From the NCBI GenBank assembly GCA_016933575.1, contig JAFGAR010000081.1, positions 1 through 64,000 on the forward strand: a stretch of DNA of 64,000 nt, in the 5' to 3' direction. Both the position numbers and the translations under genes were made by a program. This DNA is from Candidatus Thorarchaeota archaeon (GTDB lineage: Archaea > Asgardarchaeota > Thorarchaeia > Thorarchaeales > Thorarchaeaceae). The notes below the pieces were generated by a model, which was not told the DNA's origin, ran no database searches, and was given only the letters and a program-made list of their open reading frames with translations. Numbering within the stretch: the stretch's first letter is position 1; every line of letters begins with the position of its first letter. Shown here one piece after another: positions 2,772 to 17,359 of the stretch.

Positions 2772-4565
2772 GTGAGTAAGATACTCAGAGTGAATATGAA
2801 CGATTTAAGCCACAAATGGGAATCTGTTCCAAAGGAATACGAGACCCTGGCTGGAAGGGCATTCACCTCAGCTGTTGTGAACAAAGAGGTTGACCCGATG
2901 TGTCATCCTCTACGGGAGAACAACAAGTTTGTTATCTCCCCCGGGTTATTAGCTGGAACTCCAGCTCCATCATCCGGTCGGCTGAGTGTAGGCGCAAAGT
3001 CACCTTTGACAGGAGGAATCAAAGAGGCTAATGCTGGTGGACTTACAGCTGATCGACTTGCACGAATTGGTGTTCGCGGCATCATCCTTGAAGGGGTTCC
3101 TCCTACCGGCTCGAAGGATTGGTACAGTATTGTCATTCGAAAAGACAGTTGTGAGATAGTAAAGACAAACAATTACGCAGGCAAAGGTCTCTACGAACTG
3201 ATCGGAAAGATCTGGAAGGAGTATCCTGTTAAACCGGGCATTATCGGATGTGGTGTTGCCGGTCAACGCTTGATGAAATGCGCTGGAGTCTTTGGCAACA
3301 ATCCTGAGAATACTGATCCTGGTCGCTACGCTGGGAGAGGTGGTCTTGGAGCTGTTCTTGGATCCAAGCATATTGTAACAATTATTAGTGATCCTACAGG
3401 AGGATTAATACCCGAACCCAAGGACAAGCAGCGATTCGAAAATGGTCGGAAATCTCTCCGGGAGGCTCTCGATAAGCATCCTGTTACAGGGAAATTGACC
3501 GACGATGAGGGTAATCCCTTTGGTGGCCTAAAGAACTACGGAACCAATATTCTACAAAACATCCTAAATGAGGCTGGTGGCCTACCAACGAGAGGCTTCA
3601 GTTCAGGACGATTTGAGCAAGCTGCAAAGATTTCTGGTGAAGCAGTGCATGAACTTGTTGATAAGACGAAGAAAAAGTTCGGCGAAGCTGCAGAAGGCGC
3701 GTACGCTCATGCCTGTCATCCCGGGTGTGTTATGCGGTGTTCAAATTCAGTACCCTATGAGAAGACGGGAAAACTCCAAGTTTCACCTCTTGAATACGAG
3801 TCAGCTTGGGCTCTTGGATCCAACCTTGGAATTGGAAATCTCCATGATGTTGCTGAACTGAATAGACTTTGCAATGATATAGGTCTTGATACTATTGAAG
3901 CTGGAAATACCCTGGCAATGTTGATGGAAGGTGGTCTCATCAAGTATGGGGACGGTCCCGGTGCAATCAAGGCACTAAAAGAAGCCTACAATCTAGATTC
4001 TGCTTTGGGCAGACTTGTCTGTTCAGGTACTCAGACAGCTGGCGAAGCTCTTGGTGTAACTAGAATCCCAGTTGTAAAAGGTCAAGCTCTACCAGCTTAT
4101 GATCCACGTCCTATTCGTGGAATTGGTGTAACCTATGCGACAACAACAATGGGGGCAGACCATACAGCTGGATACACCATTGCTGCTGAAATTCTAGGTA
4201 TCAAAGGCACTGTTACAGATCCTCGCGCCTTAAACAAAGCTGAACTATCCAGAGCATTTCAGGCAACAACAGCCTACATTGATGCAACAGGTTACTGTCT
4301 ATTCATTGCCTTCTGTATTTTGGATAACGATGATGGCTTCAAGGGTATGACTGATTCAGTGAGTGGATTCCTAGGTAAGGATATTGATGTCACCGAATAT
4401 GGAATGGCGATTCTCAAGAATGAGCGAACATTCAACAAGAACGCTGGATTCACTGAAAAAGATGATAGACTTCCTGAGTTCTTCAGAACCGAACCACTAC
4501 CGCCACATAATGTTACCTTTGATGTAACAGATGAAGAAATAGATGCAGTCTACAAGGGAGTATAG
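2772..4565 (+). CDS. aor: Aldehyde:ferredoxin oxidoreductase (W/Mo-bis-pterin)
   Basis: KSPLTGGIKEANAGG, AGRGGLGAVLGSK, CHPGCVMRC Fe-S motif, EYE, GLDTIE, AYDPR, DDRLP. Confidence 0.95.
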   Translation: MSKILRVNMNDLSHKWESVPKEYETLAGRAFTSAVVNKEVDPMCHPLRENNKFVISPGLLAGTPAPSSGRLSVGAKSPLTGGIKEANAGGLTADRLARIGVRGIILEGVPPTGSKDWYSIVIRKDSCEIVKTNNYAGKGLYELIGKIWKEYPVKPGIIGCGVAGQRLMKCAGVFGNNPENTDPGRYAGRGGLGAVLGSKHIVTIISDPTGGLIPEPKDKQRFENGRKSLREALDKHPVTGKLTDDEGNPFGGLKNYGTNILQNILNEAGGLPTRGFSSGRFEQAAKISGEAVHELVDKTKKKFGEAAEGAYAHACHPGCVMRCSNSVPYEKTGKLQVSPLEYESAWALGSNLGIGNLHDVAELNRLCNDIGLDTIEAGNTLAMLMEGGLIKYGDGPGAIKALKEAYNLDSALGRLVCSGTQTAGEALGVTRIPVVKGQALPAYDPRPIRGIGVTYATTTMGADHTAGYTIAAEILGIKGTVTDPRALNKAELSRAFQATTAYIDATGYCLFIAFCILDNDDGFKGMTDSVSGFLGKDIDVTEYGMAILKNERTFNKNAGFTEKDDRLPEFFRTEPLPPHNVTFDVTDEEIDAVYKGV

Positions 4566-4578
4566 TTTTTAGAAACGT

Positions 4579-4616
4579 GGAGAAGAGAAACGATTCTCCT
4601 CTCCCCTCCTCTTTTT
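4579..4616 (+). terminator. Hairpin plus T-tract after aor
   Basis: GGAGAAGAGAA-ACGA-TTCTCCTCTCC followed by CTCTTTTT. Confidence 0.5.
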
Positions 4617-4662
4617 GACTATAGGCAAACACATTTCAAATTGAAAATACTGAGAACTATCA

Positions 4663-4971
4663 ATGATTGAGATTCATCTTTACGGCAGGCTTAGAACCCT
4701 TGTTTCAGGAAGTAGTGCTAGTGATGATACTGTTTTGTCTTTAGAGTACATTGAGAATGAAACTTTCTCTCAACTTATTTCTCGTCTAGAACTCACACCC
4801 AAGGACTTGGGGGACTGCTTCATAAATGGTACACTTGCAAAGAAAGATAGTGTACTCACTAATGGAGACCGGATAGGTCTTTTCCCATTTAACATGGTTC
4901 TTCTCTGTGGTGGCCAACACCTCAAGGGTCACGGTTACACAAGGGAAGACATTGATGTTGATTATTACTAA
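4663..4971 (+). CDS. MoaD/ThiS (ubiquitin-fold) protein with a C-terminal extension after GG
   Basis: IEIHLYGRLR...FING...GDRIGLFP beta-grasp pattern; internal GG followed by 18 more residues. Confidence 0.75.
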   Translation: MIEIHLYGRLRTLVSGSSASDDTVLSLEYIENETFSQLISRLELTPKDLGDCFINGTLAKKDSVLTNGDRIGLFPFNMVLLCGGQHLKGHGYTREDIDVDYY

Positions 4972-5417: not shown

Positions 5418-5530
5418 CCTCGGGACCTCACCTTCGTTTATTAAAAAATATGCGAATGATTTTACTAGATTTGCATTGTAATCTGAGTATTGCCACAGTG
5501 CCATGAAGATATAGAAAATCAAGTCATTTA

Positions 5531-5734
5531 TCAAATTTGAATCATGATATTTTGAAGCTCATCAAGTAATTCATTCAGATCTTCTACTAAATTACGATTT
5601 CCATCATAAACCCATTCATATTTCCAGTAGTTTGCTTCAATATTCCGTTTTTTTCCATTAGTAAGAATACATCCAAAGAAACTTGGTTTGATAAAATCGA
5701 TGAAAAAGTAGTGAATATCTATAGAATTCCACAA
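5531..5734 (-). pseudogene. Possible AT-rich gene fragment
   Basis: 67-aa ORF in a low-GC patch; protein-like C-terminal helix but no convincing start or family. Confidence 0.25.
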
Positions 5735-5772
5735 TCCATTATGCCTATAATATTGAAGTTTAGCACTATAGA

Positions 5773-7026
5773 TTATATCTTAACATCAATCACTTTTCTT
5801 TCAATTCGACTTCTCTCTGCTGCAAATGTCATGAGGTGACTCTCTAAAGTTTCCTCTGGTCCGGAGAGTATCTTAGTCGCATCGTTTTCTGAAACCGCAG
5901 TAACAAATGCATGGATCAGCCCATAATCACCCCCGCCATGGTCTGAGAGTGCCTCTGGTTTTTCATCCTGAGATAGATCAACTATTTCTGATCTTCCCGT
6001 CAAGAACTCAAACACTTGGATCTTTGTACCATTTCCATATATCTCACCACGAGTCCCAAATATTCTAGTTTCTCTTGGTCTTGCCTTTGTGAATGCAGTC
6101 ATTGTAAACGAGGCGGTTTCTCCATCCTCAAACTCCAGGTTGACTATTTGATGGTCCACAACATCATTGTCACACTCATATACACATCGACCATATTGCC
6201 CCTCCCTAAGTGCTTTAATCACTCCAGCTACTGTGACATCAGGCGTTACAACACTAACCGGCCATCCAAGTTTTCCATGTTTGACGAGATTGAGATAGAT
6301 GTGTTTAGCTGAATAGGGACATTGCGGTTCATAGTCACAGTCTAGACAATTATCTCCAGCAATAGAAGGTTTATTCTCCTTTTTGAAATGAGTGAGCGAC
6401 CCAAAGGAAGATATAGTCTTGCACTTCTTTCCAACAATATATCTAATCCAGTCTATGTCATGACATGACTTTGTAAGAAGCATAAACGCTGACTCTTTCT
6501 CATTTCTCCAATTCCCTCTAACAAATGAATGAGCTTGGTGCCAATAACCTACTGGTTCAAGATGTTGGATACTTATGACATCGCCAATCAGCCCTGAATC
6601 AATGATAGACTTAAGCTCCTGAGTATATCGTGTATATCGCAAGACATGTCCCACTGCAAAGATGATCTTCTGTGATACGACTGCTTTTGTTATATCTTTG
6701 CAGCTCTTCTCATCTGGTGCCATCGGCTTTTCAAGGAGGATGTGATAATCCTTCTTTGCAAAGGCAATTGCTGTATCTTTATGCATGTGGTCTCGAGTTG
6801 CAATTATGACAGCGTCTGCGATTTTTGGTTTCTTTGCTAGGTCTTTCCAATCAGTGAATACATTCTCTTGTGGAATATTATGGTCTTCTACCATTTTAGT
6901 CCTGTAATATTCACGAGGTTCTGCTACTCCCACAATTCTCGCTCTATCTGGGTGTAGTTTCGCATAGGCAGCATAGACAAATCCTCTATCTCCAGCACCG
7001 ACAATGACTAATTCGACGGGTTTCAT
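5773..7026 (-). CDS. Gfo/Idh/MocA family NAD(P)-dependent oxidoreductase
   Basis: GAGDRG Rossmann motif, EKPMA, VGHVLRY, HSFVRGNWR, KSCHDID, HGGGD. Start moved to MKPVEL; ORF is open to 7080. Confidence 0.92.
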   Translation of the reverse strand: MKPVELVIVGAGDRGFVYAAYAKLHPDRARIVGVAEPREYYRTKMVEDHNIPQENVFTDWKDLAKKPKIADAVIIATRDHMHKDTAIAFAKKDYHILLEKPMAPDEKSCKDITKAVVSQKIIFAVGHVLRYTRYTQELKSIIDSGLIGDVISIQHLEPVGYWHQAHSFVRGNWRNEKESAFMLLTKSCHDIDWIRYIVGKKCKTISSFGSLTHFKKENKPSIAGDNCLDCDYEPQCPYSAKHIYLNLVKHGKLGWPVSVVTPDVTVAGVIKALREGQYGRCVYECDNDVVDHQIVNLEFEDGETASFTMTAFTKARPRETRIFGTRGEIYGNGTKIQVFEFLTGRSEIVDLSQDEKPEALSDHGGGDYGLIHAFVTAVSENDATKILSGPEETLESHLMTFAAERSRIERKVIDVKI

Positions 7027-7146: not shown

Positions 7147-8136
7147 TTATTTTTCTTCAGAACCAGATAGTCGACGAAGTTGCTTGGTTTCCTTTGCAGC
7201 TCTAGTTGCTCCAGCAAGGCCTGCGAGTCCCATAATCTCGCCATTTACTATGTCCAGAGGAATTGCAAAGACTATAGTATTACTCTGGTCGAAGCTGATA
7301 TCTTCTAGACTCGAGAGTGTTCTAAGATAGAGGGCTTGACTACTCATCTGTTGCACAGCTGCTTCGAGGTTATGGGCAGCACGAAGCTCGCCTTCGCTTT
7401 TAATGATCACAGCTCGTCGTTCTCGTTCAGCCTCTGCCTGACGTGCAATCACACGTTTCATATCATCTGGCAATTCAATGTTCTGTAGGTTGACACTGAT
7501 GATATCGACACCCCAATCATCACTGATCCGGTCAACAATCTCCTTGATTCGGTCAGCAATCTCATCCCGTTTCTCTAGCAGTTCATCAAGTTCAACATTC
7601 CCAATGACATCCCTCATTGTTGTTTGAGCATACTGAACAACACTCAATTTGACATCCATGATGTTGATGAGGCTCTTTGCTGTATTGATGACCTTCATGA
7701 AGACAACTGCATCAGCCATTAGACTGATGTTATCTTTCGTCATCACTTCTTGCTTTGACACGTCCAGAGTCTGAATGCGCAGATCTTGTCGTAGGAATTT
7801 CTCTATGACTGGCCATTTGAAAAAGATGCCAGGACCTACTAGTCGCTTATACTTTCCAAACCTCAAGATGATTGCTTCTTGCCACTGTTTGTTTATTGCC
7901 AAGGTAGCAGGAATGAGGATTAGGAAGAGTCCTCCCAGTACAGTCATCAAAGTACTCTCAAAACCTATTCCAATAGGAATTCCGAATTGATTTCCATAGA
8001 TTCCTAGGAACAGAAAAATGACAGCTAGGAATAGAAATGACACAAATGGCACAGGAGACCCCGAGTACTCATAGGTACTCATTCTAGTTTCACGTGGATT
8101 TCTCTTCTCACTGATATTATCGGTAGCTTCGCCCAT
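7147..8136 (-). CDS. SPFH/band 7 (stomatin-like) membrane protein
   Basis: ILRFGKY, GPG, DLRIQTLDV, TKDN, AQTTMRDVIG, RQAEAERERRA. Confidence 0.95.
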   Translation of the reverse strand: MGEATDNISEKRNPRETRMSTYEYSGSPVPFVSFLFLAVIFLFLGIYGNQFGIPIGIGFESTLMTVLGGLFLILIPATLAINKQWQEAIILRFGKYKRLVGPGIFFKWPVIEKFLRQDLRIQTLDVSKQEVMTKDNISLMADAVVFMKVINTAKSLINIMDVKLSVVQYAQTTMRDVIGNVELDELLEKRDEIADRIKEIVDRISDDWGVDIISVNLQNIELPDDMKRVIARQAEAERERRAVIIKSEGELRAAHNLEAAVQQMSSQALYLRTLSSLEDISFDQSNTIVFAIPLDIVNGEIMGLAGLAGATRAAKETKQLRRLSGSEEK

Positions 8137-10364: not shown

Positions 10365-11147
10365 TCATCTGTGTGAAATACCTCCACTCCTTTTACTCTC
10401 TCGTAGTGCATCTCTAATCTCAATGAACATGTTCAGTGTGTCCCTACTGAATACTCGTTTTTTCCGTCTAACATTCAACTTCTTGGTTTCTGCTAATGGT
10501 TTGCGACCAAAGTTCCTCATCTCACGTAAAATAAAGTCGCGCAGTTCTTCGTAGAATTTGATGCCCTCTATTTTCTCCTCAAAAGCATTTGAGGTCAATC
10601 TCTGAATAAGTAGTGATGTCAAATTTGCCGCATGGGTCCCTGTTGAACCTCCTGCTGTTTCAATAAGAACCGAACCTATTCCAAACATCCTGTCGAAGGG
10701 ACCTGCACGTGTTCTCACATTCACTATAGTACGGAATGGCACGTGTTTCTTTGTTATATTGATGATACCTTTGTGAGTGTATATGAACGGCATTGCATTT
10801 CCAGACCAGCCCACTGCAGAATACTCGATTCGTCTTATGTAGATGAATGTGTAGACAGATCCTACAACAACGAATATGACGACAGCTGTTGCATAGACAA
10901 AATTCGTAGTTTCCCAACCAATAATGACCAGAAGTTCGATTGGTTGAAAAAGATCTAGGATATTCTCCAAGAAGACTGGGTTTGCAAAACCCACGAACAA
11001 GAGTGATAATCCCGACCAGATGAGAAAGAGGATAATCCCAACCTTGAGCATCTTCTTGTATAGAAACGCATTGAGAGGCTGGAACGTTCGACCACTTGTT
11101 ATGTGATCAATTGGAGGTTTTATCACCCGTTCCTCATCCTGAGTCAT
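10365..11147 (-). CDS. 2-TM bacterial PH domain (bPH_2/YdbS-like) protein, paralog 4
   Basis: KGIINITKKHVPFRTIVNV, GPFDRMFGIGSVLIETAG; most divergent copy. Confidence 0.85.
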   Translation of the reverse strand: MTQDEERVIKPPIDHITSGRTFQPLNAFLYKKMLKVGIILFLIWSGLSLLFVGFANPVFLENILDLFQPIELLVIIGWETTNFVYATAVVIFVVVGSVYTFIYIRRIEYSAVGWSGNAMPFIYTHKGIINITKKHVPFRTIVNVRTRAGPFDRMFGIGSVLIETAGGSTGTHAANLTSLLIQRLTSNAFEEKIEGIKFYEELRDFILREMRNFGRKPLAETKKLNVRRKKRVFSRDTLNMFIEIRDALRESKRSGGISHR

Positions 11148-11165
11148 CTTGTGTATACCTCACAC

Positions 11166-11876
11166 TTATTCTCTTTTCAAAAGGTCCCTAATCTCTCGTA
11201 GAACAATGAGAATCTCATCCTCTAGACTATCTTCTGTTCTTGGTACAGGTTCTTCTACTGGAACTACAACCTCTGTTCCAGTTACGTAAGGATCTTTGAA
11301 CTTCCGAAGTTCTCTGAGTATAAAGTCTCGAAGCTCTTCGTAGAAGGTGATTCCCTCTAGTTTTTCCTCTGCTGCTGTTGTTGCACCTGAGTATCCAGCT
11401 GTTTCAATCTCAACTGCACCAATTCCAAACAGCCTGTCGAAGAGACCTGCCCGACTTGAAATATTGGTTATTGTACGAAATGGAACGTGTTTACGAGTGA
11501 TATTGATGATTCCCTTCTTCACGAAGATTTCTGGCATTGTTTCTCCAGACTGCGCAATAACTGAATACTCGATAGACCTGAGATATATCGGTACTATGAT
11601 TATTCCTGGAATCAACCAAATTGCTGTTATGACCCAATACCAGAGATTCAAGGTTAGCCACCAGTATTGGAAGAATGCTGAGAAGTTGTCGGAGCCAGTG
11701 AATAGAGTAACTAGCCATAAAACGAGGATAAACGATCCAAATATGATTGCCCAGATTCCAAATGCTGTAAAGATTCCGATGAACCACATCTTGTTCCTGA
11801 ATGCCTTAGAGGGCCTGAATACCTTTCCACTTGCAACATTCTCTACTGGTGGTTTGATTACTTTTCCTTCGCTCAT
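11166..11876 (-). CDS. 2-TM bacterial PH domain (bPH_2/YdbS-like) protein, paralog 3
   Basis: KKGIINITRKHVPFRTITNI, DRLFGIGAVEIETAG, C-terminal LREIRDLLK. Confidence 0.88.
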   Translation of the reverse strand: MSEGKVIKPPVENVASGKVFRPSKAFRNKMWFIGIFTAFGIWAIIFGSFILVLWLVTLFTGSDNFSAFFQYWWLTLNLWYWVITAIWLIPGIIIVPIYLRSIEYSVIAQSGETMPEIFVKKGIINITRKHVPFRTITNISSRAGLFDRLFGIGAVEIETAGYSGATTAAEEKLEGITFYEELRDFILRELRKFKDPYVTGTEVVVPVEEPVPRTEDSLEDEILIVLREIRDLLKRE

Positions 11877-11948
11877 TTACTGACAATCTCCTTTTCTTCG
11901 CATTATCGGGTTATTGTCCTAAAAGGAACATTAGCTTCCCGATTCTTC

Positions 11949-12695
11949 TCAGTCCAATTTATTCTCAATTCGTTCTAACACATCCCTGATCTCACGCAAT
12001 GTGATGAGCATCTCATCATCAAGACTATCACTGAGTCTTGGAACTGGTTCTTCTCTGGGAAGAACGACCTCTGTTCCAGTCACGTAGGGGTCTCTGAACT
12101 TCCGAAGCTCCTGTAAAATGAAATCACGAACTTCTTCATAGAACGTGATTCCTTCGAGCTTCTCTTCAGGTCCTGTCTGACCTCCTGCACCCCCTGAATA
12201 TCCTGCAGTCTGAATCTCCACTGTGCCTATGCCAAAGAGCCTGTCGATGGGACCCGCTCTGGAACTGATGTTCGTTATGGTTCTGAACGGAACGTGTTTC
12301 CTTGTGACATTGATCAAGCCCTTCTTGACATAGATCTCAGGCATTACCATTCCAGACTTTGATATCACACTGTACTCGATACTTCTGATGTATAATGGTA
12401 TTCCAATCATGGCAGGAAGCCACCAGACTACCAGCGAGAGAGCATACCAAAAGCTGAGAATGGGGAGTACATCAAAGAATATCGTGAAGAAGGTGGACCA
12501 CGGAGCATCTTGATCCATCATGTAGATCCAAGCTCCCAAGATGAGTACCCCTACGGTCAGCATCCAAACGAAAATAGCTACCACTGTTGCAGTGAACCAT
12601 TCCTTGTAGCAGAACCTAGTGTCCGGTTTGAACACTTTACCCTTAGTGACATCTTCCATTGGTGGTTTTATTATCCTTCCTTCTTCACTTCCCAT
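11949..12695 (-). CDS. 2-TM bacterial PH domain (bPH_2/YdbS-like) protein, paralog 2
   Basis: KKGLINVTRKHVPFRTITNI, GPIDRLFGIGTVEIQTAG. Confidence 0.88.
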   Translation of the reverse strand: MGSEEGRIIKPPMEDVTKGKVFKPDTRFCYKEWFTATVVAIFVWMLTVGVLILGAWIYMMDQDAPWSTFFTIFFDVLPILSFWYALSLVVWWLPAMIGIPLYIRSIEYSVISKSGMVMPEIYVKKGLINVTRKHVPFRTITNISSRAGPIDRLFGIGTVEIQTAGYSGGAGGQTGPEEKLEGITFYEEVRDFILQELRKFRDPYVTGTEVVLPREEPVPRLSDSLDDEMLITLREIRDVLERIENKLD

Positions 12696-12718
12696 TGTTT
12701 CCTAACCTCGCTTACATA

Positions 12719-13453
12719 CTATAACTTGGTCCTAAGAATCTCTCGAATGTCTCGGATTGCCAGGAGAATCTCATCATCCAAGGATCCATCAATTCTTACG
12801 ACTGCTTCCTCTTGTGGAACACTTACCTCTGTAGCAGTGGCATATGGACCCCTGAATTTCCTGAGTTCGCCAAGCACGAATCGTGTCAGTGCCTCAAAGG
12901 CTTTGATTCCCTCAAGCTTCTCTTCAGGACCCGTTTGTCCGCCTGGCCCTCCTGAATATCCGGCAGTCTGAATCTCGACATTGCCAATCCTGAACAGTCT
13001 ATCGAATACGCCAGCTCGTGAGCTGATGTTTGTGACAGTTCTGAATGGGACATGTTTCTTGGTGATATTGATGATTCCCTTGCGAACATAGATCTCCGGG
13101 GATGCCTCACCAGACTCTGAGATTACAGAGTACTCAATTGAGTTGATATATACTGGAATTCCAATAAGTGCGGGGATCAACCACACTAGATTCGCAATGA
13201 TTGTCCAGTAACTCGCAAATCCGAGCCATTGACTTATGAAGAGCGCATGGCTCCACCCTTCATCCAGTGATATCAGGTACGACATGCCGTACACTGAACC
13301 AATGACTATGAACCATAGTGCAACAGCCACCATGATTGCAGTGAACCAATACTTATTCCGCAAGGCTTTCGATGGCCTGAATGTCTTACCACTAGATATT
13401 GTTTCCATAGCTGGGAAATAACCAGCTGATACTTCCTCGTTCGTTTCATTCAC
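12719..13453 (-). CDS. 2-TM bacterial PH domain (bPH_2/YdbS-like) protein, paralog 1
   Basis: Same PH motifs. Start set at GTG 13453, overlapping the upstream stop, by alignment with the paralogs; ORF is open to 13507. Confidence 0.85.
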   Translation of the reverse strand: MNETNEEVSAGYFPAMETISSGKTFRPSKALRNKYWFTAIMVAVALWFIVIGSVYGMSYLISLDEGWSHALFISQWLGFASYWTIIANLVWLIPALIGIPVYINSIEYSVISESGEASPEIYVRKGIINITKKHVPFRTVTNISSRAGVFDRLFRIGNVEIQTAGYSGGPGGQTGPEEKLEGIKAFEALTRFVLGELRKFRGPYATATEVSVPQEEAVVRIDGSLDDEILLAIRDIREILRTKL

Positions 13454-14102
13454 CTTCTTGTGTTTCTCTCTGATAGCGAGGAAGCTGTTTTGCACCAAGC
13501 TTGCCAAAGATACGTACAGACTGTTCTGTCATGTACATCTCTTCCTCCTTTGGGTTCAAAGTGAGGTTGTACTCTTTGAGGATCGTGTCGAGTGTTTCTC
13601 TACATTCCTCTACCTTTGGGCACGGTTTACCATCGCTCTTTTTCGACTTGTCCACTGGTGTTCCATCACAGAGTTTACCACCATAATTGGTATGCTCATA
13701 CCAGATAATTACACCAAGTCCAAGCGTGAAGACAATGTAGACATTCGTGTTTGCCTGATAGTCAAAGCCTGTGAGAATTCCCTTCTCTCCATTAACATTC
13801 TCAATGTCAAGGCGATGACTGTTTGCATGTTGCTTTAGAGAATCCTCTATCTTTGACTTAGCCCTACTCAGAACCCTGGACACATAGGCGGCACTTGTGA
13901 ACTGCATCCTTTGTATCTTTTCTTTCTCTTTCCTTGCTTTCTTAGAGTCAGTGATTTTACTATCAATCTCTTGAGCAAGGATATCGAAGAGGTACTCAGG
14001 AATGTCCATGGGTCTCTCATACCCACTGAAGATGTCCGAGGTGGGTTTTCCATGATGGTATTCCCACCATACCACTGCTTCATGAGTCGAGAGCAATCCC
14101 AT
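13446..14102 (-). CDS. Putative transcriptional regulator with an interrupted HTH and a Cys-rich C-terminal domain
   Basis: Recognition-helix-like TSAAYVSRVLSRAKSKIE; C-terminal WYEH...C...CPxxxxC; GAGG upstream of ATG 14102 (ORF open to 14126). Confidence 0.65.
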   Translation of the reverse strand: MGLLSTHEAVVWWEYHHGKPTSDIFSGYERPMDIPEYLFDILAQEIDSKITDSKKARKEKEKIQRMQFTSAAYVSRVLSRAKSKIEDSLKQHANSHRLDIENVNGEKGILTGFDYQANTNVYIVFTLGLGVIIWYEHTNYGGKLCDGTPVDKSKKSDGKPCPKVEECRETLDTILKEYNLTLNPKEEEMYMTEQSVRIFGKLGAKQLPRYQRETQEGE

Positions 14103-14142
14103 ACTATACTTCCTCGTGTCACGCACAATTTAACCTTTTCTG

Positions 14143-14220
14143 GTCAAAATTTACTGCGTTCTGGTAAACATTTATATACGAACGAATATAAATCTTTACC
14201 ATCAGGCTGTAAACATTTAC
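14143..14220. promoter_or_regulatory. Divergent promoter with four GTAAA-N2-TTTAC operator palindromes
   Basis: Sites at 14143, 14164, 14188, 14209; TATA-like TTTATATA (+, 14171) and TTTATA (-, 14187-14192) overlap the two inner sites. Confidence 0.75.
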
Positions 14221-14226
14221 AGTCTT

Positions 14227-15012
14227 ATGGTGTTGAAAATGATGACACGAAACGGATCGGTAATTCGAACAGAAGGTCTGAACAAGAGCTTCAGCTCAGT
14301 TCAGGCTGTAAGGAATCTGAATCTAGAAGTTGCTCCGGGCAGTCGGTTCGGTTTTCTTGGACCGAATGGCGCTGGGAAGACAACCACTGTACGAATATTA
14401 TCGGGACTCTTGAAACAGACCAGCGGGAATGCCACAGTGTGTGGTTTCGATATCAATACTCAACGAGATGATATCAAGGCTGCGACTGGTCTACTACCAG
14501 AATCTCCTGGATTGTATTCAAAGCTCTCCGCAGTGGAATTTCTAGAATTCATTGGAGCATTGAACGGAAGAAACGGTGAATCTCTGAATAAACGCATTGA
14601 CAGTCTATTGAGTATTCTCGGACTTGAGGGTAGACAGAACGATCTTCTAGAGTCTTACTCTTCAGGTATGAAACAGAAAGTCCTTGTTGCATCAACTCTC
14701 TTACACGAGCCAAAGCTTGTCTTTCTTGATGAGCCTACATCGAGATTAGACCCAGCAGCAAGTGCGTTAGTAAAAGACTTGATTCTGATTCTTGCGGAAG
14801 AGACTGAAACTAGCTTCTTCATATGTACTCATCAGACCTCATTTGCTGAAGATGTATGTGATGTAATGGGAATTCTCAATGCAGGCGAACTTGTTGTACA
14901 TGGTTCTCCATCTGAGATAATCGCATCGATGAATGTGAATGACCTTGAAGATGCATATCTGAAGATTGTTGGTGGTCATGTTGACAGGAAGACCCTACTA
15001 GCCTGGAGGTAA
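14227..15012 (+). CDS. ABC exporter ATP-binding protein (DrrA/CcmA-like)
   Basis: Walker A GPNGAGKTT, signature YSSGMKQK, Walker B FLDEP, H-loop CTH. Confidence 0.96.
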   Translation: MVLKMMTRNGSVIRTEGLNKSFSSVQAVRNLNLEVAPGSRFGFLGPNGAGKTTTVRILSGLLKQTSGNATVCGFDINTQRDDIKAATGLLPESPGLYSKLSAVEFLEFIGALNGRNGESLNKRIDSLLSILGLEGRQNDLLESYSSGMKQKVLVASTLLHEPKLVFLDEPTSRLDPAASALVKDLILILAEETETSFFICTHQTSFAEDVCDVMGILNAGELVVHGSPSEIIASMNVNDLEDAYLKIVGGHVDRKTLLAWR

Positions 15013-15018
15013 TCTTCT

Positions 15019-16698
15019 ATGACGCGACAATGGCTTGCTATTGCAAAGGCTGAATTCCAAGTATTATTTGCAAGCATGAGATCGCATAGGAAGACGTATG
15101 TGAGTATACTTGCTATCATTGCATTTTCTTGGGCAATGGTGATTGCTCCCGTAGTGATTGGGTACTTCATCGGTCTGATAATCCCAATGGAATCCCTACA
15201 ACCACTCTTGCAATTGATCTTTCCAGGACTGATGCGTACAATTGTTCTTTTCCTGTGGATCTTGTTACTGCTATTCCCACTATCCTATGCTCTTCAAGAG
15301 ATAAAGATAGGTCAGTGGGAGATATTCCTGTCAAATAATGTATCTACCCGAAATATCATGGCAGGTACGTTCTTGGGCAAGATTCCTCTCTTTGGACTAA
15401 TTGTTGTATTCTTTTCACCTCTCCTGATTACACCATTAGTCCTAGCATTTGAGGTCAATATAGTAGGGCAAATTATGTTGTATGGCGTAATCACTCTGCT
15501 TGCATTAGGAACAATATGGCTCTCAAACTTCATTACTAGTATAATTCAAGCGAGACTGGGTGACTCCTCACGAGGTAACGATATTGCTAAGGCATTATCA
15601 ATGGTCATTGCAATCATTGTCATCATCCCAATGTATGGCTTGATGTTCTTCCTTCCAACTGTATCTGAAATGATGGGAATGGATGCTTTTCTTCTCCTCC
15701 CACCTACATGGTTTGCAGATACCCTGAGCTGGTTAGCAATCACTTTCAATGGAGTCGGACTGACCGTAGATCAAACTACTATCTTTGGTAATTTTCTCCA
15801 GCTAGACCTTCTAGTATCATCTTTACTGATGGGCGGCTTTGTCTTTGCGACAATCATCATTGCACTCAGAGCAGCTGACAGAGTATTTACTATTGATGCT
15901 GGTGTTCGAACGCAAGTCGTGACAACAGTGCGAAACGAGAACTTGATCCTTCGAGGGATTAGAAGACTTAGTTCTGGACCATTTGGTTCACTTATGGTAT
16001 CTAATTTCAAGGACTTCACCCGGAAGGCACAGAATCTATCAAAGATATTTTATGGTGTAGTTCTAGCATGTATATTACCAATCATCTTGACAACTGTAGA
16101 TGCTGAATACATTCAGATTAGGGAGATGATCATAATGATCATTGCAATGCTGTCGCTTGTTGGATCATTCCCATTCGCTGGAGCTGGTTTCCTTGAGAGT
16201 AAAGATCAGCTATGGATGATTCAAGGAGCACCAAATGGAGCCTCGAAGTTTGTTAAGAGCAGAATTGTGACTCAGGCGATGATAGGTATACCTCTGATCT
16301 TCATTCCTGCAACGCTGATGTACATCCTACTTGAAATGACTCCCTTTGAACTACTGGCATTGATTGGTCTTGGATATATGGCAATATTTGGAGGCATGCT
16401 CATTTCAACTGGTATAACTGCTGGTAATCCGAATTATGAGGATACAAAGTCGCCAGCGCATCAGGCAAACCTGATGACCTCAGTCATGCTGGCAGAGTTC
16501 TCAATTATTGGAGTCCTCTTTATCGATATGTTCCTCACAATCGGGCTAGGTATTGATATGCTTGGATTCATTGCAAGTATTGTTGGGTCCAACTATCTGA
16601 TGTTCGGAATGTCTTTCGTAGGCATATTGGTCCAGTGGTCCCTTGGTGCAATCTTGGTGTGGATAGGTATTCGAAAGTTATCAAGTCCAGCCAGTTAG
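15019..16698 (+). CDS. ABC-2-type exporter permease (large, multi-TM)
   Basis: 559 aa with more than ten hydrophobic helices, directly after the ATPase. Confidence 0.85.
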   Translation: MTRQWLAIAKAEFQVLFASMRSHRKTYVSILAIIAFSWAMVIAPVVIGYFIGLIIPMESLQPLLQLIFPGLMRTIVLFLWILLLLFPLSYALQEIKIGQWEIFLSNNVSTRNIMAGTFLGKIPLFGLIVVFFSPLLITPLVLAFEVNIVGQIMLYGVITLLALGTIWLSNFITSIIQARLGDSSRGNDIAKALSMVIAIIVIIPMYGLMFFLPTVSEMMGMDAFLLLPPTWFADTLSWLAITFNGVGLTVDQTTIFGNFLQLDLLVSSLLMGGFVFATIIIALRAADRVFTIDAGVRTQVVTTVRNENLILRGIRRLSSGPFGSLMVSNFKDFTRKAQNLSKIFYGVVLACILPIILTTVDAEYIQIREMIIMIIAMLSLVGSFPFAGAGFLESKDQLWMIQGAPNGASKFVKSRIVTQAMIGIPLIFIPATLMYILLEMTPFELLALIGLGYMAIFGGMLISTGITAGNPNYEDTKSPAHQANLMTSVMLAEFSIIGVLFIDMFLTIGLGIDMLGFIASIVGSNYLMFGMSFVGILVQWSLGAILVWIGIRKLSSPAS

Positions 16699-16716
16699 AA
16701 ATTGGAGCTGTTCCCA

Positions 16717-17359
16717 ATGCTAGGGAATTGGTACCATATTGTAAAGGTAGAGTACTTGGTGATGACCGCCAGGTTTCGCTCTCAACGTAAAGCGGTGATG
16801 ATGAGCCTATTCACTCTTAGTGTGATTTGGGCTCTCATCATCGTGCCAACGATAGCATCAATCCTTCTTCAATGGTTTGGGGCTCAAATGGAGTTTCTAT
16901 TGGTTCTTGGATTCTCAGAATCAACTATGGATAGTGAAGAGTTCTCCCAATGGCATTGAGCGGTATGTGAAAGCTCGTATTGCAGAATCCTTACTATTTG
17001 GATTCCCAATGACTATAATTGTGTCGATTATGATTCAGTTTGCAGTTGGATTAGATCTAGCTGAATCACTAGTGATTCTCTTTAGTACATCTCTAGCTAT
17101 GATTGGTGCTGTCTTGGTAAGTACCGGGAATACCACTTACAATCCCTATTATGATGATACTCAGAGTAAGTCCTTCAAAGATAATACTGGAATCATGATG
17201 TCTATCATAATGTTCTGAATGATTGTAGTTACTCCACTATCGATAATTCCTCTGTTTAGAAATCTCATTGTCTTATCATGCGTCCCCACAATGATACTGG
17301 TGACTGTTGGAACCATCCTCATCATTAGAGGCACACGGAAAATAACACGACCTGATTAG
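16717..17359 (+). pseudogene. Decayed paralog of the ABC permease
   Basis: N-terminus WYHIVKVEY matches WLAIAKAEF of the upstream permease. It then jumps with a frameshift to FLDSQNQLWIVKSSPNG (cf. FLESKDQLWMIQGAPNG). In-frame TGA at 17216-17218; C-terminus RGTRKITRPD matches IGIRKLSSPAS. Confidence 0.85.

What the first reader, a model, noticed from the sequence alone, without database searches (positions are those of the whole stretch)
10365..17359. Candidate undescribed envelope-defence module: four-paralog bPH_2 array, Cys-rich regulator and divergent ABC exporter
Seen: four tandem 2-TM PH-domain paralogs follow a regulator-like gene on the minus strand, the first overlapping the regulator's stop codon. 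An ABC ATPase, a large permease and a decayed second permease run divergently from one shared ~120-bp promoter with repeated operators. Known: in Bacillus subtilis the bPH_2 proteins YdbS/YdbT belong to the SigW envelope-stress regulon and protect against a membrane-active bacteriocin. Inference: this is a self-contained, co-regulated toxin/antimicrobial resistance or membrane-stress system in an Asgard-like archaeon, with both arms having expanded by duplication.
Basis: partly seen in the sequence, partly recalled or inferred. Interest (0 to 1): 0.8.

Follow-up and report, generated by a model that had tools for sequence, protein, structure and literature searches.

The report
Archaeal PH-domain membrane array with exporter
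A Thorarchaeota genome carries a real, evolutionarily conserved gene module in which a previously undescribed DNA-binding protein appears to switch off both its own operon of four PH-domain membrane proteins and a neighbouring ABC exporter; the module resembles bacterial systems that handle membrane-attacking peptides, but its function is untested.

Summary
On the minus strand, a 218-aa regulator-like gene (REG, 13446-14102) is followed by four tandem 2-TM bPH_2 paralogs (10365-13453). A DrrA-like ABC ATPase, a 12-TM permease and a decayed second permease run divergently on the plus strand.

- **Core unit.** In 80 related loci, REG is followed by a bPH_2 gene in 74 of 75 evaluable cases, across Thorarchaeota and Bathyarchaeota. 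This is a conserved two-gene core.
- **Operator.** The palindrome GTAAA-N2-TTTAC occurs 45 times in the 11.5 kb upstream of REG, against 2 times in the other 1.04 Mb. Both outliers sit at promoters of ABC ATPase genes.
- **This window.** Four such sites cover two back-to-back TATA boxes and are the only ones in the 64 kb.
- **REG.** It belongs to a small archaeal family with no Pfam model. It has a sigma-70-region-4/LuxR-type HTH and a Cys-motif domain with no PDB fold match.
- **Lineage pattern.** The ABC arm and the PH expansion (1-5 copies, positional orthologs) were seen only in Thorarchaeota-type loci.

Co-regulation is well supported by comparative evidence. The proposed role, protection against or export of a membrane-active compound, rests on analogy with YdbST and with leaderless-bacteriocin clusters. 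First readers of this scan noted the same module in four other genomes. Novelty: a new variant of a known kind.

The parts
10365..11147 (-). PH1: distal and most divergent 2-TM bPH_2 paralog (260 aa). It has an insertion in the PH domain and a basic C-terminal tail.
   Evidence: PF03703 E 3.8e-10. It forms a 100/100-supported clade with the last-position paralogs of distant Thorarchaeota loci.
11166..11876 (-). PH2: 2-TM bPH_2 paralog (236 aa).
   Evidence: PF03703 E 2.2e-9. It groups with penultimate-position paralogs (support 91/99). Public databases name its homologs 'PH domain-containing protein / YdbS-like'.
11949..12695 (-). PH3: 2-TM bPH_2 paralog (248 aa).
   Evidence: PF03703 E 4.3e-10; alignment A1.
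12719..13453 (-). PH4: first paralog of the array (244 aa from GTG 13453). Its start overlaps the REG stop codon (GTGAATGA).
   Evidence: PF03703 E 4.1e-9. Sequence read. Ortholog starts abut the REG stop.
13446..14102 (-). REG: 218-aa regulator. It has a sigma-70-region-4/LuxR-type HTH carrying a ~45-aa helical insertion, then a long helix, a 4-strand sheet, a Cys loop (C145, C161, C167, with H137) and C-terminal helices.
   Evidence: No Pfam or NCBIfam hit. Family alignment A2. AF2 model pLDDT 88.6. The N-terminal domain aligns to sigma4/LuxR HTHs and to EnfR 8HNO at Z 3.5-4.5. The C-terminal domain has no PDB match. Profile match to a wider ~150-190-aa family at E 5e-38.
14143..14154 (.). 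Operator site 1 (GTCAAAATTTAC), in the predicted REG leader.
14164..14175 (.). Operator site 2 (GTAAACATTTAT), overlapping the ABC-side TATA box TTTATATA (14171-14178).
14188..14199 (.). Operator site 3 (ATAAATCTTTAC), overlapping the REG-side TATA box (TTTATATT on the minus strand, 14185-14192).
14209..14220 (.). Operator site 4 (GTAAACATTTAC, extended to the 16-bp palindrome CTGTAAACATTTACAG at 14207-14222), in the predicted ABC leader.
14227..15012 (+). ABC ATPase, DrrA-like (261 aa from the first ATG; by comparison with relatives the real start is more likely ATG 14239 or 14242).
   Evidence: PF00005 E 4.9e-26; TIGR01188 drrA 203.8 bits, below its cut-off. Orthologs 80-90% identical in the genus.
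15019..16698 (+). PERM: single-chain permease of about 12 TM segments (559 aa), from a family without a Pfam model.
   Evidence: Hydropathy. All homologs are annotated 'hypothetical protein' with no Pfam domain. A Bathyarchaeia-type homolog (L081) reaches PF12698 ABC2_membrane_3. Protein-atlas leads point to 12TM_1/ABC_tran_2.
16702..17239 (+). Decayed second permease (PERM2 remnant): an N-terminal piece and a piece matching residues ~390-500, in two frames with an internal stop.
   Evidence: tblastn 34% identity, E 1e-18, to PERM. Best matches are the second permeases of L049, L044 and L051 (39-50% identity). One search reports 1 TGA inside.

Best explanation
This is a self-contained divergon under a single regulator.

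**Proposed mechanism (inferred).**
- REG probably acts as a dimer. It binds four GTAAA-N2-TTTAC palindromes laid out symmetrically around position 14181/14182.
- The two inner sites overlap the two back-to-back TATA boxes. The two outer sites lie just downstream of the predicted transcription starts.
- Bound REG would therefore shut off both its own operon (REG plus four bPH_2 membrane proteins) and the divergent ABC-2-type exporter.
- An unknown signal would release REG. It might be sensed through the His/Cys3 site of the C-terminal domain, or relayed from the membrane.
- The cell would then make the four distinct [2-TM + PH] proteins, probably as a hetero-oligomeric membrane assembly, together with the exporter.
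- Together these would shield the membrane from, or expel, a membrane-active amphipathic compound such as a peptide.

**Shown here.** The gene content; the conservation of the REG-PH core; operator sites at REG and ABC promoters; the old, ordered PH paralogy.

**Inferred.** DNA binding by REG, repression, the signal, the PH assembly and the substrate.
For: - REG is followed by bPH_2 in 74 of 75 evaluable loci, across Thorarchaeota and Bathyarchaeota.
- The exact palindrome occurs 45 times in the 11.5 kb upstream of REG, against 2 times in 1.04 Mb elsewhere. Both outliers lie at ABC ATPase promoters. One is the L054 transporter, 4.4 kb from REG. The other heads a Bathyarchaeia ABC-permease-REG-PH operon in L095.
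- The half-site is enriched 25- to 41-fold upstream of REG, and the recognition helix YVSRVL is shared by every locus (it was one of the two patterns used to find them).
- In Bathyarchaeota promoters the palindrome directly follows the TATA box, a position typical of archaeal repressors.
- In five Bathyarchaeota genomes, and in the window's own genome, the only exact sites outside these promoters are single and intragenic.
- Within the genus the sites are conserved while the flanking intergenic bases vary.
- The REG N-terminal domain matches sigma4/LuxR HTHs, including the dimeric archaeal repressor EnfR (PMC10570040). Members of the wider family hit GerE and Sigma70_r4.
- PH paralogs form positional clades across genera.
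- A divergent ABC accompanies 28 of 33 loci with two or more PH copies, but only 3 of 23 loci with one copy.
- Bacterial precedent: ydbST is in the sigmaW regulon and protects against amylocyclicin (PMC3498285, PMC8144471). YdbS/YdbT-like DdE and DdF are needed to export enterocin DD14 and lie beside an ABC transporter (PMC8657885). Triads of PH protein, ABC transporter and regulator recur in leaderless-bacteriocin clusters (PMC11580447).
Against: - There is no expression or binding data. Two metatranscriptomes from the source study held none of this stretch.
- The loci compared are related genomes, so the counts are not independent events. A methyltransferase and a TIM-barrel gene are also syntenic in Thorarchaeota.
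- A second ABC-PERM pair in the same genome has no REG, no PH and no operator, so the transporter family is not tied to the system.
- Some loci lack the N2 palindrome. They carry the half-sites at other spacings or in everted orientation.
- The Cys motif is shared by paralogous regulators that sit next to unrelated secreted proteins, so it may be structural.
- The functional analogy comes from distantly related bacterial proteins. The PH proteins match no solved structure by sequence.
Confidence: 0.5

Rival explanations
1. Export and self-immunity apparatus for the organism's own small membrane-active peptide, equivalent to a leaderless or circular bacteriocin cluster. The PH proteins and the ABC transporter would move the peptide out and protect the producer.
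For: - In bacteria, PH-domain proteins, ABC(-2) transporters and a regulator recur in leaderless-bacteriocin clusters, and DdE/DdF are required for export (PMC8657885, PMC11580447).
- In genus relatives a membrane-anchored C39-like peptidase (PF13529, E 1.3e-8) follows PERM on the same strand.
- Small hydrophobic ORFs (70 aa, 2 TM) lie inside the PH array in those relatives.
Against: - The window's locus has no room for a core-peptide gene; its intergenic gaps are 18-124 bp.
- The C39-like gene and the 70-aa ORF are missing here. The own genome holds only a 35%-identical paralog of the C39-like gene elsewhere, and the 70-aa ORF was not found.
- Bathyarchaeota loci hold only REG and one PH gene.
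Confidence: 0.15
2. The PH proteins are not effectors. They are membrane-anchored partners that sense membrane state and hold or release REG, in the manner of sigma/anti-sigma pairs. The ABC exporter would be the real output.
For: - REG has a sigma-70-region-4-type HTH.
- REG and the first PH gene are tightly coupled, with overlapping or abutting stop and start codons, in nearly all loci.
- The PH domains are expected to face the cytoplasm, where REG is; this rests on the hairpin-then-PH layout and was not tested.
Against: - In five Bathyarchaeota genomes the exact operator occurs only at the REG-PH promoter. Such a circuit would have no output other than the PH protein itself.
- Expansion to 4-5 ordered paralogs is easier to explain for a structural assembly than for an anti-regulator.
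Confidence: 0.15
3. The ABC-PERM pair is an unrelated housekeeping exporter that merely neighbours an autoregulated REG-PH operon through conserved synteny in Thorarchaeota.
For: - Flanking genes (methyltransferase, SDR, LRR protein, TIM-barrel protein) are equally syntenic within the genus.
- A paralogous ABC-PERM exists elsewhere in the genome without REG.
- No divergent ABC was seen in 15 Bathyarchaeota loci.
Against: - Operator sites overlap the ABC-side TATA box and leader in the window.
- Operators stay with the ABC promoter when the transporter is detached from REG (L054).
- An ABC-2 transporter is fused into the REG-PH operon behind an operator-bearing promoter in a Bathyarchaeia contig (L095).
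Confidence: 0.08

Closest known systems
Bacillus subtilis YdbS/YdbT (bPH_2 membrane proteins of the sigmaW envelope-stress regulon)
   Same: - Same Pfam domain (PF03703), preceded by a 2-TM hairpin.
- Stress-regulon logic with a dedicated regulator.
- YdbS (2 TM + 1 PH) plus YdbT (6 TM + 3 PH), as described in PMC8657885, add up to four [2-TM + PH] modules. That equals the number of separate genes here.
   Different: - Here the four modules are separate genes, with 1-5 copies in relatives.
- The regulator is a repressor-like HTH protein from an undescribed archaeal family, not an ECF sigma factor.
- An ABC exporter is co-located.
- Sequence similarity is limited to the PH core, with no hit to any solved structure.
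Leaderless-bacteriocin export/immunity sets (DdE/DdF + DdHIJ of enterocin DD14; LnqC/D; aureocin A53 Orf7/8)
   Same: PH-domain membrane proteins are encoded next to an ABC transporter, and often a regulator (PMC8657885, PMC11580447).
   Different: - No bacteriocin structural gene was found at this locus.
- The host is an archaeon.
- The transporter has a single 12-TM permease from a family without a Pfam model.
Tfx family regulators (EnfR/TON_1525, PDB 8HNO; MTH0916)
   Same: - An archaeal regulator with an N-terminal sigma-70-region-4-like HTH.
- A long recognition or 'stem' helix, then a C-terminal alpha+beta domain.
- EnfR is a dimeric repressor acting on a promoter pseudo-palindrome (PMC10570040).
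- REG residues 1-90 align to 8HNO residues 4-54 at Z 4.5, rmsd 1.1 A, 51 residues, 26% identity.
   Different: - No TFX_C (PF14601) hit.
- The C-terminal domain was not matched to 8HNO in fold searches.
- REG carries a conserved His/Cys3 motif.
- In this genus REG has a 45-aa insertion inside the HTH.
DrrAB-type ABC-2 exporters
   Same: - The ATPase's best NCBIfam match is drrA (E 3.5e-60).
- A homolog of the permease reaches ABC2_membrane_3.
   Different: - The ATPase score is below the drrA cut-off.
- The permease is a fused 12-TM chain with no direct Pfam hit.

Membership tests
bPH_2 (PF03703) | Match to the Pfam HMM above the gathering score | tested here: met
   All four paralogs score 37-40.3 bits against a cut-off of 22. 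The genome search confirms them.
bPH_2 (PF03703) | Membrane anchoring by a TM hairpin N-terminal to the PH domain | tested here: met
   Two hydrophobic segments lie before the PH domain in each paralog (Kyte-Doolittle). This is a crude predictor.
bPH_2 (PF03703) | Oligomeric ring assembly of PH domains, as reported for solved PHb2 domains (Xu et al. 2010, cited in PMC11580447) | not testable with these tools
   No multimer prediction was available. There is no sequence match to solved structures.
YdbS/YdbT pair | One single-PH protein plus one fused triple-PH, 6-TM protein | tested here: not met
   All four proteins have a single PH domain and are 236-260 aa long. The total number of modules is the same, but the architecture differs.
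ABC-2 / DrrA-type exporter | ABC_tran ATPase that meets the drrA subfamily cut-off | tested here: not met
   PF00005 is met (92.4 bits). TIGR01188 scores 203.8 bits against a cut-off of 312.45. It is a generic ABC-2-like ATPase.
ABC-2 / DrrA-type exporter | Permease with an ABC2_membrane domain | tested here: inconclusive
   The window's PERM has no Pfam hit even at E 10. The L081 homolog (phmmer E 2e-33 to PERM) hits PF12698 at 31.9 bits against a cut-off of 31.6. Atlas leads point to 12TM_1/ABC_tran_2.
Tfx family | TFX_C domain (PF14601) | tested here: not met
   No hit for REG, for its Bathyarchaeota orthologs or for 44 members of the wider family.
Tfx family | Sigma-70-region-4-like HTH followed by a long stem helix and an alpha+beta head | tested here: inconclusive
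   The HTH and long helix align to 8HNO (Z 4.5, rmsd 1.1 A, 51 residues). The AF2 secondary-structure order is similar. The C-terminal domain search did not retrieve 8HNO.
LuxR/GerE HTH regulators | GerE (PF00196) or Sigma70_r4 HMM match | tested here: inconclusive
   REG itself has no hit. Of 44 proteins in the wider family, 12 hit GerE (best E 1.3e-6) and 4 hit Sigma70_r4 (best E 1.9e-5). That family matches REG at hhalign E 5e-38.
Leaderless-bacteriocin gene cluster | A structural gene for a small bacteriocin peptide within the cluster | tested here: not met
   No ORF-sized gaps exist in the window's locus. Small hydrophobic ORFs exist only in relatives.
Known anti-phage defence systems (PADLOC) | Match of the specific components to a PADLOC model | tested here: not met
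   Only generic ATPase similarity for the ABC protein. Nothing for PH1-4, REG or PERM.

The most novel reading that the evidence does not exclude
REG may found an undescribed archaeal class of one-component regulators. In this reading a sigma-4-type HTH is fused to a metal- or iron-sulfur-binding domain (WY-x-H ... C-x2-C-x5-C in the core family, a Cys spacing also seen in WhiB-like Fe-S proteins; that comparison is from my own knowledge). The REG-bPH_2 pair would be an ancient redox- or metal-triggered membrane-protection unit of anaerobic sediment archaea. In Thorarchaeota it would have grown into a four-subunit PH-ring machine working with a dedicated 12-TM ABC exporter. That would give the first assignable function for bPH_2 proteins outside bacteria.
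Probability: 0.15. Interest if true: 0.75.

Novelty: new variant of a known kind. Interest (0 to 1): 0.5.

Why it matters
- **bPH_2 function.** bPH_2 membrane proteins are widespread, but their mechanism is unknown even in Bacillus. This locus is a compact, conserved archaeal version with a clear regulatory handle: a 12-bp palindrome and a single dedicated regulator.
- **Natural variants.** Relatives offer one-gene, four-gene and transporter-linked forms that could be compared directly in experiments.
- **New regulator family.** The locus defines a small regulator family with no Pfam model. Its predicted operator is conserved across Thorarchaeota and Bathyarchaeota, which is unusual for uncultured archaea.
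- **Asgard biology.** If the protective or export function holds, it would add to what is known of membrane stress or inter-microbial antagonism in Asgard archaea.

Tried and rejected
I used the search for related loci and the fetch from genomes instead.
- **Expression.** No RNA holder was listed for the stretch. Two metatranscriptome runs from the source study laid no contig on it. This says nothing about expression.
- **REG folds.** Foldseek against the PDB gave nothing at E <= 0.001 for whole REG or its C-terminal domain. VIA-align wide gave only weak rows for the C-terminal domain (best Z 3.5).
- **PDB sequence searches** with the REG and PH profiles found nothing.
- **Family libraries.** Pfam and NCBIfam gave nothing for REG or PERM. 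PADLOC gave nothing specific.
- **Wider regulon.** The three other exact operator sites in the own genome, and the extra sites in Bathyarchaeota genomes, are single and intragenic. I dropped the idea.
- **Recent duplication of PERM.** No DNA-level similarity and only 34% protein identity. The remnant is an old paralog, so I rejected this.
- **Sigma-70 promoter and terminator scan** does not apply to an archaeon.
- **Internal N/C-half repeat in PERM** was not detectable by BLAST.
- **One notes look-up by words** failed on a syntax rule.

Full report
**What is there.** The minus strand carries five tightly packed genes:
- REG, 13446-14102, 218 aa.
- Four paralogs: PH4 12719-13453, PH3 11949-12695, PH2 11166-11876 and PH1 10365-11147.

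All four paralogs hit PF03703 bPH_2 above the gathering cut-off. They are 35-44% identical to PH1, with an invariant PH core. Each has a hydrophobic hairpin before the PH domain. They are the only bPH_2 matches in the 3.47-Mb, 85%-complete assembly.

PH4 most likely starts at GTG 13453, overlapping the REG stop (GTGAATGA). Ortholog starts abut the REG stop in the same way.

The plus strand carries three features:
- A DrrA-like ABC ATPase (14227-15012).
- A 559-aa permease with about 12 TM segments and no Pfam hit (15019-16698).
- Two out-of-frame fragments of a second permease (16702-17239).

Named homologs place the organism in the Thorarchaeota. The only DNA run that holds the stretch is a sediment metagenome, which may be its source.

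**The regulator.** REG has no Pfam or NCBIfam match. Its homologs are 'hypothetical proteins' of Thorarchaeota and Bathyarchaeota.

The core form is 167 aa. The window's form has a ~45-aa charged insertion between HTH helices 2 and 3, and a ~13-aa insertion between the first two conserved Cys. Invariant residues include the recognition helix (Y73, V74, S75, V77, L78, R80), plus H96, H137, C145, C161 and C167.

The AF2 model (pLDDT 88.6) shows this order of elements:
- two short helices;
- the two-helix insertion;
- a long helix (71-95);
- a four-strand sheet;
- the Cys loop;
- C-terminal helices.

The N-terminal part aligns to sigma-70 region 4 and LuxR-type HTHs. It also aligns to EnfR (8HNO), a dimeric Tfx-family repressor that binds a promoter pseudo-palindrome (Z 3.5-4.5; PMC10570040). 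These scores are individually weak, but nearly all 50 rows are of this HTH type.

The C-terminal domain, modelled alone (pLDDT 78), matched nothing convincing.

A profile search of 1.84 billion representatives found only 95 clusters. Most are ~150-190-aa proteins with the same build. They match REG at hhalign E 5e-38, and their HTHs hit GerE and Sigma70_r4. In Thorarchaeota relatives, such paralogs sit next to genes for secreted proteins.

REG therefore belongs to a small archaeal regulator family that has no Pfam model and that no paper in the held library describes. The Cys motif is a hallmark of that family rather than something specific to this locus.

**Linkage.** Within the genus the whole neighbourhood is syntenic, so that alone proves little. 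The 80 loci found with the REG profile are more informative.

| Group (record label) | REG followed by bPH_2 | Divergent ABC-PERM | PH copies |
|---|---|---|---|
| Thor/Asgard-labelled | 47 of 48 | 37 of 47 | 1-5, mode 4 |
| Unlabelled archaeon | 11 of 11 | 6 of 11 | 1-3 |
| Bathyarchaeota/Thermoproteota | 16 of 16 | 0 of 15 | always 1 |

 The single exception, L074, has a recombinase-like insertion downstream of REG.

Among loci with two or more PH copies, 28 of 33 have the divergent ABC. Among loci with one copy, 3 of 23 do. These genomes are related, so the counts describe a pattern and are not a statistical test.

In genus relatives the array-type PH genes lie at the REG locus. Many also carry one differently built bPH_2 gene elsewhere. 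Most other Asgard families sampled showed neither REG nor bPH_2.

**The operator.** The window's intergenic region holds four sites:
- GTCAAAATTTAC (14143-14154).
- GTAAACATTTAT (14164-14175).
- ATAAATCTTTAC (14188-14199).
- GTAAACATTTAC (14209-14220).

They are arranged symmetrically about 14181/14182. The inner pair overlaps two back-to-back TATA boxes: TTTATATA at 14171-14178 (+) and TTTATATT at 14185-14192 (-). They are the only matches with one mismatch or fewer in the 64 kb.

Across the 78 loci where the REG start could be placed:
- The exact palindrome occurs 45 times in the 150 nt upstream of REG (11.5 kb in total). It occurs twice in the remaining 1.04 Mb.
- Both outliers sit at ABC ATPase promoters. 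In L054 the ABC-PERM unit lies 4.4 kb from REG, and two sites flank its TATA box. In L095, a Bathyarchaeia contig, an operator-bearing promoter heads an operon of ABC ATPase, ABC-2 permease (PF12698), REG and PH.
- The half-sites are 25- to 41-fold enriched upstream of REG.

In Bathyarchaeota the palindrome directly follows the TATA box. Within the genus the sites are conserved while the flanking bases drift.

Exact sites elsewhere are single and intragenic, both in the own genome and in five Bathyarchaeota genomes. The predicted regulon is therefore essentially the locus itself.

Loci without the N2 palindrome carry the same half-sites at other spacings. Short-REG loci of the same genus have GTAAAC-N6-8-GTTTAC, and L049 and L052 have an everted arrangement.

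**History of the two arms.**
- *PH arm.* PH1 groups with the last-position paralogs of distant Thorarchaeota loci (support 100/100). PH2 groups with the penultimate ones (91/99). The array is therefore old, ordered and presumably sub-functionalised.
- *Module count.* Four separate [2-TM + PH] genes equal the module count of YdbS (1) plus YdbT (3), as described in PMC8657885.
- *Transporter arm.* The permease remnant is closest to the second permease of L049, L044 and L051 (39-50% identity). Several Thorarchaeota loci have ABC-PERM-ABC-PERM. The window thus holds a decayed PERM2.
- *Accessory genes.* Relatives instead carry a membrane-anchored C39-like peptidase after PERM and a 70-aa 2-TM ORF inside the array. 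Both are missing from this locus.
- *Second transporter copy.* A second ABC-PERM pair on another contig (ABC 73% identical, PERM 47%) has no REG, PH or operator.

**How it most likely works.**
- *Shown:* the composition, the conserved REG-PH core, operators at both promoters, and operators that stay with ABC promoters.
- *Inferred:* REG dimers occupy the four sites and repress both promoters. This rests on the sites' positions over and just downstream of the TATA boxes, and on analogy with EnfR. A signal then releases REG, and the PH assembly and the exporter act on a membrane-active compound.

The functional part rests on bacterial precedent:
- ydbST is in the sigmaW regulon and protects against amylocyclicin.
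- DdE and DdF are needed for enterocin DD14 export, next to an ABC transporter.
- Triads of PH protein, ABC transporter and regulator recur in leaderless-bacteriocin clusters.

I put about 0.8 on the regulatory architecture and about 0.4 on the protective or export role.

The rivals are a producer export/immunity cluster, PH proteins acting as sensor partners of REG, and mere neighbourhood. Each is listed with its evidence.

**Novelty.** Pairing bPH_2 proteins with an ABC transporter and a regulator is known in bacteria. New here are:
- the archaeal setting;
- the regulator family and its operator;
- the unfused, ordered four-paralog array;
- the 12-TM permease family.

No paper in the held library links Thorarchaeota or Bathyarchaeota with these proteins. 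First readers of this scan noted the same module in four other genomes; no follow-up checks were listed for those notes.

Noticed in passing
L037:10306-10518, L039:10507-10719, L096:10408-10629, L103:6651-6860: Genus relatives carry a conserved ~70-aa two-TM ORF, and sometimes a further ~41-aa hydrophobic ORF, between the first and second PH paralogs. The window has only a 23-nt gap there, and the ORF was not found anywhere in the own assembly.
   Followed up: partly
L030:4829-6391 (-), L039:4843-6381 (-): In relatives a 512-520-aa membrane-anchored C39-like peptidase (PF13529 E 1.3e-8; BtrH_N) follows PERM on the same strand. In the window this position holds the decayed second permease. The own genome has only a 35%-identical paralog, on contig C156.
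   Followed up: partly
L091, L092, L096, L098, L103, L105, L109 (upstream of REG): Within the same genus there are two REG forms in otherwise syntenic loci. The long form has the 45-aa HTH insertion and four GTAAA-N2-TTTAC sites. The short form is 62-64% identical over the shared part and has GTAAAC-N6-8-GTTTAC plus other palindromes. Regulator and operator seem to have changed together.
   Followed up: partly
G000:C78:59755-62180 (locus L122:6755-9180): A second ABC ATPase and 12-TM permease pair lies in the same genome (73% and 47% identical). It has an ordinary TATA promoter and no REG, PH or operator.
   Followed up: yes
L123:2293-2763 and 5460-5930; L124:2367-2756 and 4302-4796; L125:1849-2349: Thorarchaeota relatives carry several ~130-170-aa paralogs of REG (HTH plus WYEH..CxxCx5C). 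At least four of the five lie next to genes for large secreted or repeat proteins, which suggests a family of local regulators. None was found in the window's own assembly with the REG query.
   Followed up: partly
L074:5380-7500: This is the only REG locus without a downstream PH gene. It has a MerR/excisionase-like and recombinase-like reading frame there instead, so it may be a mobile-element insertion or an assembly join.
   Followed up: no
G018:C111:96-746: The REG ortholog of one genus relative has an in-frame TAG. This could be a pseudogene or a sequencing error.
   Followed up: no
window 7147-8136 (-): A stomatin/SPFH-like membrane protein gene, judged from its sequence only, lies 2 kb from the PH array. 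It was not part of the conserved block in the loci compared.
   Followed up: no
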